The position numbers were made by a program. From a virus (lineage: Duplodnaviria > Heunggongvirae > Uroviricota > Caudoviricetes), in IMG/VR virus record IMGVR_UViG_2778261136_000002: a DNA stretch of 18,807 nt. One strand, 5' to 3'. This document shows positions 1-3,000 of the stretch, piece after piece; position 1 is the first letter of the stretch, and every line of letters begins with the position of its first letter.

Positions 1-3000
1 CAGTTGCTGGACAGGGTTTCCCCGTCTCAGTGGGCGGCAATAGGCGTGCTGGGGAGTCTGCTGTTTGGTCTGCTGACATATCTGACGAACCTGTATTTCA
101 AAATCAGAGAAGACCGGCGTAAGGCGGCACGGGGAGAGTAGGTGATGAACCATGAAGAAATGAATCAGCGCTTCAGTCGTCTGGAAAATGAAATTGCTGA
201 ACTGAATAAAAAACTGTCGGCGCTGATGCCTTCTGAAGATGCAAACAAACGCCGCGATGAGCAGTTTGCTGCGTTTGACGATTATTGCCGGAAAGTGATG
301 AGCAGAAATCTCGCAGAGTGTTTCCGTATTCAAAAAAACAGAGAGCGCTCTGCAAATAGTGAGATTCTGGATAATTTTTTAAAGGGGACGCATCTCGCCA
401 GTGATTGTTTCATTGCTCATTCTTTTGGTGGCTTTCATGAGGCCATCAAACATGATGTTGAGAGAAGTCCAGGTATCCTCTGTTCCATTCCCGTAAGCAT
501 CGAAATAGACACAAATACGATAACCGGTGAACTCGTTACCGCCGGAGTCGGTATATTCCGTCATGAGGGGAACGATGCCAAAGGTTCCTTTACAAAAATC
601 GGGCCGTTCTTTCTGAAGGTAGAGCGATAGTTTGTTAAGTACCCATCCGACAGCTCGCTCATTTTGGTTTATTTTCGTATCGCGAAACAAAAATTCGAAG
701 CGGCCAGATGACGCATGGGTGCAACCAAATACCGGGGCGTATTCATCAACCTTTGGTGTTCCTGAAAACATGCAGTCCGTGCTCTCGAATGCAGATGAAT
801 TGCTGTTGATCCACTTAACAAAAGAAAAAAAGGTCTGAATCGCTTGTCTGTCTGAATATTCAACAAAATCCTCAAGGTGTGTCTCGATCAGTTCCGGGTG
901 TTTACGAAAGTCATAATATTGACCGGGACGATATTTATGAGTGGTTGTTTTATCCCATGGTTGTGCTCTGCGTCCCTGTAAACGGAGGTCTGCCGCTGGA
1001 TAGATAAGCATAAGTAATCTCCTGGTGGAATGTAATCCACGATCATCCGGGGAAATTAAGAACCCGCCAGTGCCCACCACTGGTGGGGTGAAGGCTTAAC
1101 ATATCCAGGGATTCGGAACCGATAAATCCTGATAAATATCCATGAACACCAAAATCAAATACGGCCTGTCGGCTGCCGTTCTGGCGCTGATTGCCGCAGG
1201 GGCGCCTGCGCCTGATATTCTCGACCAGTTTCTGGATGAAAAAGAAGGTAACCACACCACGGCATACCGTGATGGTGCGGGTATCTGGACCATTTGTCGT
1301 GGTGCCACCAGGGTGGATGGCAAACCTGTCGTCCCGGGCATGAAGTTGTCGAAGAAAAAATGCGACCAGGTTAACGCCATTGAGCGTGATAAGGCGCTGG
1401 CATGGGTGGAGAAAAACATCCGGGTGCCACTGACTGAACCCCAGAAAGCGGGGATCGCGTCATTCTGCCCGTATAACATTGGCCCCGGTAAGTGTTTCCC
1501 GTCGACGTTTTATAAACGAATTAATGCAGGCGATCGCCGGGGTGCATGCGAGGCGATTCGCTGGTGGATTAAGGACGGTGGCAGGGACTGCCGTATTCGC
1601 TCAAATAACTGTTATGGTCAGGTATCCCGTCGTGACCAGGAGAGCGCGCTGGCGTGCTGGGGAATCGACAGATAAGCAGAATATTTTGCTGAAAAATGAC
1701 GTTGGCCAACGCGGACGGATAACACGAAATCCTGCGAACTGGCAAAACCTCAGTGAATAAAAGTAAAAACCCCGTTTGTTAGCAGCAGGTGGGGTTTTGT
1801 GTTTCCTGACTCCGGAAAAGTCAAAGGAGAAAGTGTGTTTGATTTTAGCAAACTGATTCGGGAGATTTGAGTGATGGCTGAAAAATTATCTACCTGGAAG
1901 TTCATTCTTATCTGGCTGGTGTTTGTGATTATGGTCTCCGGTTATTTCATCGGTCAGATACGCTGGTGGTGAAATGAACCGCGTTCTGTGTGTGGTCATC
2001 ATTGCCCTGCTGGTGGCCTGTGGTGCGCTTAGTCTGGGGCTGAATCATTACCGTGATAACGCCATCACCTACAAAGCGCAGCGCGATAAAAAAGCCAGAG
2101 AGCTGGAGCTGGCAAACGCAACCATTACTGATATGCAGGTGCGCCAGCGCGATGTTGCTGCGCTCGATGCAAAATACTCGAGGGAATTAGCTGATGCGAG
2201 AGCTGAAAATGAAACTCTGCGTGCTGATGTTGCCGCTGGTCGTAAGCGCCTGCGGATCAACGCCACCTGCTCCGGTACCGTGCGTGAAGCCACCGGCACC
2301 TCCGGCGTGGATAATGCAACCGGCCCCCGACTGGCAGACACCGCTGAACGGGATTATTTCATCCTCAGAGAACGGTTGATGACAATGCAGAAGCAGCTGG
2401 AAGGGGCACAGGACTATATCCGCACTCAGTGCCTGAACTAAGTTTTGCTGATGCGCTGTATCGTCGCTGTATTCCCTCATTAACAGAGACCGCAGCCCGA
2501 CAGGGAGACTCCTCTGCGCGAGTGTGCGGGGATAATCAAAAACGATACACACCGGGGTTTACCGCGTTAACGGAGCGCGGTGTTGTCCCCTCATGGTCGC
2601 TGGTCCGGTGCGATGGTGGAAGAAACTGGATTTGTTGCAACTGATAACCATTATCATTTTCGCGGGTCCTTTCCGGCGATCCGGGCCGTTACGGGGCGGC
2701 GACCTCGCGCGTTTTCACTATTTATGAGATTTTTTGAGGGGGGGGGGTTGTTGTTTAATTGTTTGCTATATCTAATTGATAAGTAAGGTGAAAATAAAAT
2801 AAATACAACAACCTTACGATGTGTTTTGATGTCGTCAATGCGAAAAATGTCAATGATATCAAATGGTTTTGCAAAAACACATGGTTGTTGTATCGCTTTT
2901 TATCGATGACTTATGGAGAGGAGATGGCCTTTTTATTGAATAAAAGTGATATGGCCTCCTCCATCGGTATCTCTGTTCAGGCATTTGATAAATGGGGCGT

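What the first reader, a model, noticed from the sequence alone, without database searches (positions are those of the whole stretch)
2650..2923. Lambda-type cos with a G10 homopolymer and inverted repeats in cosB; lysis cassette directly abuts the genome end
The 12-nt cohesive end (2694-2705) and flanking cosQ/cosN sequence match lambda, but cosB differs. It has a 10-G run (2738-2747) where lambda has an A/T-rich segment, and an inverted pair ATACAACAACC...ATGTGT (2803-2824) / ACACAT GGTTGTTGTAT (2877-2893), probably terminase small-subunit binding sites. This suggests packaging specificity different from lambda, consistent with the diverged nu1 N-terminus. Rz ends only about 250 bp before cosN, so there is no bor-type gene region at the right end. 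The homopolymer could also be a slippage-prone or error-prone site.
Basis: partly seen in the sequence, partly recalled or inferred. Interest (0 to 1): 0.4.

Follow-up and report, generated by a model that had tools for sequence, protein, structure and literature searches.

The report
N15/Monarch-type phage cos packaging site
This is the DNA-packaging start site (cos) of a lambda-like E. coli prophage, of a type already described (three N15-type terminase binding sites around a bending-protein site); its only unusual feature is a run of ten G's, a rare and probably unstable or mis-sequenced variant that pushes the key binding site 2 bp out of its usual position.

Summary
Every coordinate in the finding checks out: cohesive end GGGCGGCGACCT 2694-2705, G10 2738-2747, and the inverted pair 2803-2824 / 2877-2893. 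GGTTGTTGTWT occurs exactly three times, all within 150 bp: 2746-2756 (+), 2803-2813 (-) and 2883-2893 (+). This is the lambda cosB layout R3 > I1 < R2 > R1, with an IHF-like site at 2769-2781. R3 is identical to the mapped R3 of phage N15. The small terminase (2924-3430) carries N15's recognition helix GISVQAFDKWGV. The site is therefore the "Monarch-type" complex cosB with N15 specificity described by Feiss et al. 2015, and at least 244 complete E. coli genomes carry it. cosB plus the TerS DNA-binding domain (2735-3125) behaves as a swapped specificity cassette. The G10 is not a feature of this class. The usual sequence there is GGGGGTGG, and none of 163 related loci has the window's length. 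Pure-G alleles of G7, G8, G9 and G10 occur, and the nearest relative differs in cosB only by having G8. G10 places R3 +2 bp from its conserved distance to cosN. Reads are needed to tell real slippage from an assembly error. The short Rz-to-cos gap is confirmed, but that interval is a variable cargo site. Overall the finding is ordinary.

The parts
1974..2441 (+). Rz spanin gene, with Rz1 embedded at 2194-2379. It is the last lysis gene, 252 nt before cosN.
   Evidence: ORF list. Pfam Phage_lysis 3.4e-50.
2642..2656 (.). Palindrome TGATAAccaTTATCA just left of cosQ. It is shared with lambda's right end.
2664..2670 (+). cosQ (GGGTCCT), at -30 to -24 from the nick as in lambda.
   Evidence: Conserved in nearly all 52 unique relatives.
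2694..2705 (+). cosN cohesive-end sequence GGGCGGCGACCT, identical to lambda. The predicted nicks are 2693/2694 on the top strand and 2705/2706 on the bottom strand.
   Evidence: The nick positions are inferred from lambda.
2706..2737 (+). cosN-proximal conserved segment (bp 13-44), including CACTATTTATGAGA. This is the last stretch shared with lambda, phage 21 and the Stx1a and PhiR12 phages.
   Evidence: Conserved out to Aeromonas and Pseudomonas relatives.
2738..2747 (+). G10 tract. It is a rare allele of a spacer that is normally GGGGGTGG (8 nt). It shifts R3 by +2 bp.
2746..2759 (+). R3, GGTTGTTGTTTAAT. It is inferred to be the critical TerS binding site and is identical to N15 bp 50-63.
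   Evidence: N15 R3 was mapped by mutagenesis to bp 48-59 (PMC4669245).
2769..2781 (-). I1, a putative IHF site (TATCAATTAGATA, 12/13 of WATCAANNNNTTR) between R3 and R2.
   Evidence: In the modal allele it falls at bp 74-86, the coordinates annotated for I1 in phage 21. The TTGATAAGTAA core is conserved.
2801..2814 (-). R2, AAATACAACAACCT, which is the inverted copy of the R core. It lies 57 bp from R3, as in lambda and phage 21.
2857..2869 (+). Second IHF-like match (TATCAAATGGTTT) between R2 and R1. Its role is untested.
   Evidence: Partly conserved.
2882..2895 (+). R1, TGGTTGTTGTATCG, a direct copy of the R core.
2924..3430 (+). Small terminase subunit (TerS/Nu1 homologue, 168 aa). Codons 1 to about 67 (2924-3125) encode an N15-type DNA-binding domain with the recognition helix GISVQAFDKWGV. 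The remainder is the PhiR12_1-type TerL-binding half.
   Evidence: Pfam Phage_Nu1 1.4e-21. Alignment. Junctions. N15 match.
3402..5330 (+). Large terminase subunit (gpA homologue, 642 aa). It appears intact and overlaps TerS by 29 nt.
   Evidence: Pfam GpA_ATPase 8e-54 and GpA_nuclease 8.5e-72. The same layout is annotated in E. coli 2014C-4135.

Best explanation
Bases 2664-2924 are the cos site of a lambda-like E. coli prophage. cosQ and cosN are lambda's. cosB is the complex, tripartite "Monarch-type" cosB of the N15 packaging-specificity class.

Inferred mechanism, by homology with lambda:
1. A dimer of the TerS winged-helix DNA-binding domain (recognition helix GISVQAFDKWGV) docks on R3 (2746-2759) and the inverted R2 (2801-2814).
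2. IHF bends the A/T-rich DNA at I1 (2769-2781) to bring R3 and R2 together. R1 (2882-2895) is an accessory site.
3. TerS bound at R3 positions TerL to nick cosN 12 bp apart, giving the GGGCGGCGACCT 5' overhang. Packaging then proceeds rightward into nu1/A.

cosB plus the TerS DNA-binding domain (2735-3125) is a cassette exchanged as a unit among lambdoid phages that share cosQ/cosN and the TerL-binding half of TerS.

The G10 tract is not a designed element. It is a derived allele of the G-rich spacer just left of the R3 core (GGGGGTGG becomes pure G by T>G, then changes length). It places R3 2 bp further from cosN than the conserved distance.

Shown here: the sequence anatomy, its conservation, the co-variation with the TerS domain, and the allele census. 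Inferred: protein binding, the IHF bend, the nick positions, and any effect of the +2 shift.
For: - Repeats. There are three exact R cores, all in cosB, in > < > orientation.
- N15 match. R3 is identical to N15 bp 50-63. N15 R3 was mapped by block mutations at bp 48-59 (PMC4669245).
- TerS. Pfam Phage_Nu1 scores 1.4e-21. The N-terminal 50 aa resemble N15 gp1 with an identical helix. DNA identity to N15 gene 1 is 74%.
- Geometry. R3 to R2 spacing is 57 bp in all 74 loci that have both sites, the same as the annotated phage 21 sites at 50 and 107. I1 falls at the annotated position in phage 21.
- Footprint. cosQ, cosN, R3, I1, R2 and R1 are the conserved blocks across 52 unique relatives and an Aeromonadaceae MAG.
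- Co-conservation. The helix and GGTTGTTGTT occur together out to Pseudomonas and Halomonas.
- Cassette boundaries. Homology to PhiR12_1 ends at 2734 and resumes at 3126. Homology to Stx1a phages ends at 2734.
- Literature. [quoted passage not shown]
- G-run census. The spacer is 7, 8, 9 or 10 nt in 15, 54, 6 and 0 IMG/VR loci. It is 7 or 8 nt in 2 and 38 metagenome loci. None of 48 complete E. coli genomes has the window's length. The nearest relative, 2014C-4135, has an identical cosB apart from G8.
Against: - No binding, cleavage or virion-end data exist for this prophage.
- The Monarch sequence itself could not be retrieved (Virology 2015 paper not held). Membership therefore rests on the published description.
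- The IHF match has one mismatch. Such matches are not rarer than chance over the whole window (11 found, 10.8 expected).
- R2 to R1 spacing (80 bp) is nearly twice lambda's, so R1's role may differ.
- Direct sequence similarity of TerS to solved lambda gpNu1 structures is weak (E 0.2-0.4).
Confidence: 0.85

Rival explanations
1. The G10 is a sequencing or assembly error. The true sequence would be G8, G9 or GGGGGGTGG, so R3 sits at or within 1 bp of its normal distance and nothing unusual exists.
For: - No other locus among 163 has this length.
- The nearest relative is identical across cosB except for G8.
- Long G homopolymers are a classic miscall site for several platforms (general knowledge).
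- The window's left flank matches G6TGG alleles such as 2015C-3905. A single T>G miscall plus one extra G would produce G10.
Against: Pure-G alleles of length 7, 8 (three loci), 9 and 10 occur in independent assemblies. This shows the tract can genuinely become pure G and vary in length. No reads are available to decide.
Confidence: 0.4
2. The G10 is a real slippage allele of a prophage, and the +2 bp displacement of R3 measurably lowers or mis-positions cosN nicking. That would make it a partly crippled cos or one that has become IHF-dependent.
For: [quoted passage not shown] This is stated in PMC4669245, citing its refs 33 and 36 (Miller & Feiss 1988).
- The R3 start is tightly distributed among relatives: bp 52 in 14 loci, bp 53 in 54, bp 54 in 7, and bp 55 in the window only.
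- Mutations of this kind can accumulate while the phage is a prophage, an argument made for N15 in PMC4669245.
Against: - Relative to N15 (bp 52) the natural range already spans 3 bp. A +2 shift from the mode is at the edge of lambda's tolerance, not beyond it.
- TerS and TerL appear intact, so there is no sign of decay.
- There are no functional data.
Confidence: 0.3
3. The inverted repeats act through a nucleic-acid structure rather than as protein-binding sites. This could be an RNA hairpin in the late transcript controlling nu1 translation, or a DNA cruciform.
For: The RNA fold of 2790-2905 gives -27.5 kcal/mol with z = -3.05, and 1 of 200 shuffles folds as well.
Against: - In 12 diverged sequences only the 9-bp R2/R1 core pairing survives. 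All 9 pairs are invariant and none covaries. The inner stems (ATGTGT/ACACAT and TTGATGTC/GATATCAA) are lost.
- A third copy of the core, in direct orientation, sits at the R3 position.
- The core co-occurs with a specific TerS recognition helix even where only one copy exists, as in N15 and the Pseudomonas and Aeromonas relatives.
- No terminator-like site is present.
Confidence: 0.03

Closest known systems
cosB of the 'Monarch' group of N15-like prophages (Feiss et al. 2015, Virology 482:260; PLoS One 10:e0141934)
   Same: - R3 strongly matches R3 of N15.
- The TerS recognition helix is identical to N15's.
- There are three R sequences, with R2 inverted.
- An IHF-type site lies between R3 and R2.
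- There is no rR2 inside the TerS gene.
- The cohesive end is lambda-like.
   Different: In this window R3 sits 2 bp further from cosN than in the modal allele of the class, because of G10.
Phage N15 cos (simple cosB)
   Same: - The R3 core GGTTGTTGTTTAAT is identical.
- The TerS DNA-binding domain is of the same type, and TerS has the same length (168 aa).
- Packaging specificity is presumably the same. N15-specific terminase also packages lambda DNA, while lambda and phage 21 do not package N15 DNA.
   Different: - N15 has only R3, with gene 1 starting at bp 89, plus a remote rR2 at bp 249-260. It has no I1, R2 or R1.
- N15's cohesive end differs at bp 9 and 12.
- The N15 R3 core starts at bp 50, against bp 53 here and bp 51 in the mode.
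- The central and C-terminal parts of TerS differ (47% overall identity).
Phage lambda / phage 21 cos
   Same: - cosQ and cosN are identical.
- The architecture is R3-I1-R2-R1 with R2 inverted.
- R3 to R2 spacing is 57 bp, and I1 is at bp 74-86 in the modal allele.
- The terminase is a Nu1/gpA-family enzyme.
   Different: - The R sequences are unrelated: GGTTGTTGT here, CGTTTCC in lambda, and GTGTCGG-type in phage 21.
- The recognition helix differs.
- R1 lies about 37 bp further from R2, and nu1 starts at bp 231 rather than 191.
- There are 252 nt between Rz and cos, against about 2 kb in lambda (bor and other genes).

Membership tests
Lambda-like cos (12-nt 5' cohesive end, cosQ-cosN-cosB) | A 12-bp cosN with strong identity to GGGCGGCGACCT | tested here: met
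   12/12 identical at 2694-2705.
Lambda-like cos (12-nt 5' cohesive end, cosQ-cosN-cosB) | The conserved 7-bp cosQ about 30 bp left of the nick | tested here: met
   GGGTCCT at 2664-2670, positions -30 to -24.
Lambda-like cos (12-nt 5' cohesive end, cosQ-cosN-cosB) | Nu1-family TerS and gpA-family TerL encoded immediately to the right of cos | tested here: met
   Pfam Phage_Nu1 1.4e-21, GpA_ATPase 8e-54, GpA_nuclease 8.5e-72.
Lambda-like cos (12-nt 5' cohesive end, cosQ-cosN-cosB) | Virion DNA actually ends in the 12-nt 5' overhang at this site | not testable with these tools
   This needs virion DNA end mapping.
Complex (tripartite) cosB | Three related R sequences, with R2 opposite in orientation to R3 and R1 | tested here: met
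   GGTTGTTGTWT at 2746 (+), 2803 (-) and 2883 (+). With up to 1 mismatch, 5 matches are found against 0.63 expected.
Complex (tripartite) cosB | An IHF site between R3 and R2 | tested here: inconclusive
   A 12/13 consensus match at 2769-2781 sits at the position annotated for I1 in phage 21 and is conserved. One-mismatch matches are not rarer than chance across the window, and binding is untested.
Complex (tripartite) cosB | R3 at a fixed short distance from cosN (about bp 50-65) | tested here: met
   The R3 core is at bp 53-66 here, against bp 51-64 in the mode and bp 50-63 in N15. The window is a +2 outlier.
N15 packaging-specificity class (including the Monarch group) | R3 matching R3 of N15 (GAGGTTGTTGTT, bp 48-59; GTTGTT is most critical) | tested here: met
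   GGTTGTTGTTTAAT is identical to N15 bp 50-63. The two bases to its left differ.
N15 packaging-specificity class (including the Monarch group) | TerS recognition helix identical to that of TerS-N15 | tested here: met
   GISVQAFDKWGV is identical in both proteins.
N15 packaging-specificity class (including the Monarch group) | Monarch subgroup: no rR2 copy inside the TerS gene | tested here: met
   No match to the R core with up to 1 mismatch occurs in 2924-3430.
N15 packaging-specificity class (including the Monarch group) | Functional specificity: packaged by N15-specific terminase but not by lambda or phage 21 terminase | not testable with these tools
   This needs a helper-packaging assay like that in PMC4669245.

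The most novel reading that the evidence does not exclude
The G tract between cosN and R3 is a genuinely hypermutable spacer. Slippage through G7, G8, G9 and G10 changes the cosN-to-R3 register. That would tune or switch off cos cleavage and make packaging competence of this prophage lineage, or its dependence on IHF, heritably variable. This would be a contingency-locus-like control of a phage packaging site.
Probability: 0.06. Interest if true: 0.55.

Novelty: already known. Interest (0 to 1): 0.15.

Why it matters
The main use is annotation. The site can be labelled precisely as cosQ, cosN, R3, I1, R2 and R1 of N15 specificity. This predicts which helper phages or PICIs could package or hijack this prophage's DNA. 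N15-class terminase also packages lambda DNA, but not the reverse.

The wider census adds modest support to the Feiss model. The GGTTGTTGT site and the GISVQAFDKWGV helix co-occur from E. coli to Pseudomonas. The R3 to R2 distance of 57 bp is invariant and equals that of lambda and phage 21.

The G10 allele is a natural +2 bp spacing mutant. If it is real, it gives a ready-made test of how strict the cosN-to-R3 distance is in this class.

Tried and rejected
- Retrieving the primary Monarch/N15 cosB paper (Virology 482:260; by DOI and as PMC4461450) failed because it is not held. A direct alignment with Monarch was therefore impossible. A second literature search for Monarch found only a DNA-kit trade name.
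- Near and distant DNA searches of cosB against the deposited-phage collection found only N15 and one Enterobacter phage, matching over the nu1 5' end. No cultured-phage record in that collection carries this cosB. It is known only from prophages and UViGs.
- The IHF consensus as a statistical signal across the window was rejected: 11 matches against 10.8 expected. Only the position and conservation of the site carry weight.
- An RNA hairpin or terminator reading of the inverted repeat was rejected. There is no covariation, the inner stems are not conserved, and there is no terminator- or promoter-like site.
- The ORF at 2429-2644 in the Rz-to-cos gap has no Pfam match and was not pursued.
- Structure prediction of TerS was considered and skipped, because the Pfam Phage_Nu1 match already establishes homology.

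Full report
**Observation.** Reading the sequence confirms every coordinate in the finding:
- The 12-nt GGGCGGCGACCT is at 2694-2705.
- The G-run is exactly ten G's at 2738-2747.
- ATACAACAACC is at 2803-2813, followed by ATGTGT at 2819-2824.
- ACACAT is at 2877-2882 and GGTTGTTGTAT at 2883-2893.

cosQ (GGGTCCT) lies at 2664-2670, positions -30 to -24 from the nick as in lambda. Positions 1-41 to the right of the nick are 37/41 identical to lambda. Similarity to lambda and phage 21 ends at bp 41-47. Rz (Pfam Phage_lysis 3.4e-50) ends at 2441, 252 nt before cosN. Lambda has about 2 kb there, including bor.

The repeat core occurs three times, not twice. GGTTGTTGTWT matches exactly at 2746-2756 (+), 2803-2813 (-) and 2883-2893 (+). 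With up to one mismatch the whole 18.8-kb window has only 5 matches against 0.63 expected by chance, and 0 of 200 shuffles reach 5. The first copy overlaps the last two G's of the G-run and sits where lambda has R3. The orientation pattern > < > is that of lambda's R3, R2 and R1. Between the first two copies there is a 12/13 match to the IHF consensus at 2769-2781 on the minus strand. In the common allele of this cos class that site falls at bp 74-86. These are the coordinates annotated for I1 in phage 21, whose R3 and R2 are annotated at bp 50 and 107. Across 74 related loci that have both sites, the R3-to-R2 distance is invariably 57 bp, the same as in phage 21.

**Identity of the class.**
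- The only deposited phage records with DNA similarity to the right of bp 41 are N15 and one Enterobacter phage. They match the 5' end of nu1 at 74-75% identity.
- N15's left end reads ...CATGAGGTTGTTGTTTAATC.... The window's GGTTGTTGTTTAAT is identical to N15 bp 50-63.
- N15's R3 was mapped by block mutagenesis to bp 48-59, with GTTGTT the most critical part (PMC4669245).
- The small terminase (2924-3430, 168 aa, Pfam Phage_Nu1 1.4e-21) has an N-terminal roughly 50 residues very close to N15 gp1. This includes the identical stretch GISVQAFDKWGV, which covers the recognition helix.
- Feiss and colleagues describe exactly this combination as the "Monarch" group of N15-like prophages. [quoted passage not shown]
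- The window meets each of these criteria. No further R-core match lies inside the TerS gene.
- I could not obtain the Monarch sequence itself.

**Evidence that the sites are functional.**
- Among 52 unique upstream sequences from 80 IMG/VR relatives, the conserved blocks are cosQ, cosN, the segment CGCTATTTATGAG, R3, the TTGATAAGTAA core of I1, R2, R1 and the ribosome-binding site.
- An Aeromonadaceae MAG with 62% TerS identity keeps R3, R2 and R1 at the same distances from the TerS start (-177, -118, -40). It does so despite a different sequence at the cosN position.
- Relatives in Trabulsiella, Erwinia, Aeromonas and Pseudomonas keep both the helix ISVQAFDKWGV and a GGTTGTTGTT just upstream of the gene, as a simple N15-like cosB.
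- This co-conservation of protein helix and DNA motif is the strongest computational support for TerS binding.
- The alternative that the inverted pair works as an RNA or DNA hairpin is not supported. The window sequence folds well (z = -3.05). However, in 12 diverged sequences only the 9-bp R core pairing persists, every base is invariant, none covaries, and the inner stems disappear. No terminator- or promoter-like site is present.

**Modularity.** The nearest deposited phages overall (the PhiR12 series, about 93% identity over 89% of the window) and the Stx1a phages match up to 2734 and then diverge. PhiR12_1 homology resumes at 3126, about codon 67 of TerS. The C-terminal 100 residues of TerS are almost identical to PhiR12_1 Nu1, while the N-terminus is unrelated to it. 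So 2735-3125, comprising cosB plus the TerS DNA-binding domain, is a specificity cassette set in an otherwise shared cosQ/cosN/TerL-binding backbone. This matches the long-known lambda/21 logic.

**How common it is.** At least 244 of 5,426 complete E. coli genomes carry 80% or more of 2650-3100. The window as a whole is 98.2% identical to a prophage of STEC strain 2014C-4135.

**The G-run.** It is not a property of the class.
- The usual sequence between TTTTTTGA and TTGTTGTT is GGGGGTGG, and more distant relatives have GGTGGTGG or GAGGTTGG.
- An exact-pattern census of spacer length gave the following.

| Collection | 7 nt | 8 nt | 9 nt | 10 nt |
|---|---|---|---|---|
| IMG/VR (75 loci) | 15 | 54 | 6 | 0 |
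| Metagenomes (40 loci) | 2 | 38 | 0 | 0 |

- Among 48 complete E. coli genomes that match 2706-2790, all are 1 or 2 nt shorter than the window.
- Measured from the cohesive end, the R3 core TTGTTGTT starts at bp 52 in 14 loci (including N15), bp 53 in 54, bp 54 in 7, and bp 55 only in the window.
- Alleles in which the interrupting T has become G are rare and have four different lengths: G7, G8 (three loci), G9 and the window's G10. The T-interrupted form is nearly always GGGGGTGG (87 of the 92 T-interrupted alleles in the two pattern scans).
- The prophage in 2014C-4135 has a cosB identical to the window's from cosN to the nu1 start codon, except for G8.
- This is the signature of a homopolymer that varies in length, either in vivo or in sequencing. 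I cannot distinguish the two without reads.
- If real, the allele moves R3 two base pairs beyond its conserved register. [quoted passage not shown] The allele is therefore at the edge of tolerance.
- TerS and TerL appear intact.

**The Rz-to-cos gap.** The short gap is confirmed but unremarkable. The same junction, at 93-96% identity, is found in many Stx-converting and PhiR12 phages. Close relatives carry different cargo there: a 74-aa hypothetical ORF in 2014C-4135, and antirepressor and Rha genes in 2015C-3905. This interval is a variable moron site, and the window has a minimal version of it.

**Verdict.** The object is a known kind of cos site, the Monarch-type complex cosB of N15 specificity, and it is widespread in E. 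coli prophages. The only peculiarity is a rare G10 allele next to R3, which may be an assembly artefact. Interest is low. The one reading with some novelty, a hypermutable spacer that tunes packaging, is unlikely and untested.

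Noticed in passing
L062-L067 (about 1270-1300), L090, L096: Several relatives carry the same GGTTGTTGT cosB and TerS DNA-binding domain but a quite different sequence at the cosN position (for example CACCGGGGGTCGGTGGACGCGCAAAAACGCG). This suggests that cosN type and cosB specificity reassort independently.
   Followed up: partly
window 2715-2728: The segment CACTATTTATGAGA (bp 22-35 to the right of the nick) is conserved in lambda, phage 21 and N15. 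It is also conserved in Aeromonas and Pseudomonas relatives whose cosN differs. It is more conserved than the cohesive end itself.
   Followed up: partly
window 2642-2656: The palindrome TGATAAccaTTATCA lies immediately left of cosQ. It is also present at lambda's right end and in most relatives. I do not know its role.
   Followed up: no
window 3126 (TerS codon ~67): TerS is a mosaic. It has an N15-type DNA-binding domain fused to a C-terminal half nearly identical to PhiR12_1 Nu1. The recombination junction lies inside the gene.
   Followed up: yes
window 2857-2869 and the R2-R1 interval 2815-2881: There is a second IHF-like match (TATCAAATGGTTT) between R2 and R1. The R2-to-R1 spacing is about 80 bp here, against 43 bp in lambda and phage 21. 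A diverged E. coli class (L074) is 12 bp shorter, about one helical turn.
   Followed up: partly
window 2442-2663; L114 2483-2988; L085 1818-2990: The interval between Rz and cos is a variable cargo site among near-identical prophages. It is empty here. 2014C-4135 has a 74-aa hypothetical ORF there, and 2015C-3905 has Rha-family and antirepressor genes.
   Followed up: partly
L002 2870-3020 (PhiR12_1 cosB): PhiR12_1, which shares cosQ/cosN and the TerS C-terminal half with the window, has its own repeated motif CATGTCCGG/CCGGACATG in cosB. This implies a further packaging-specificity class, and its R sites loosely resemble those of phage 21.
   Followed up: no
window 379-1080 (- strand) and 142-630 (+): Inside the lysis cassette, between the holin and lysozyme genes, there are ORFs on opposite strands. 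A 233-aa minus-strand ORF overlaps a 162-aa plus-strand ORF. In PhiR12_1 the corresponding genes are annotated DUF1327 and DUF1823. These are likely moron genes.
   Followed up: no
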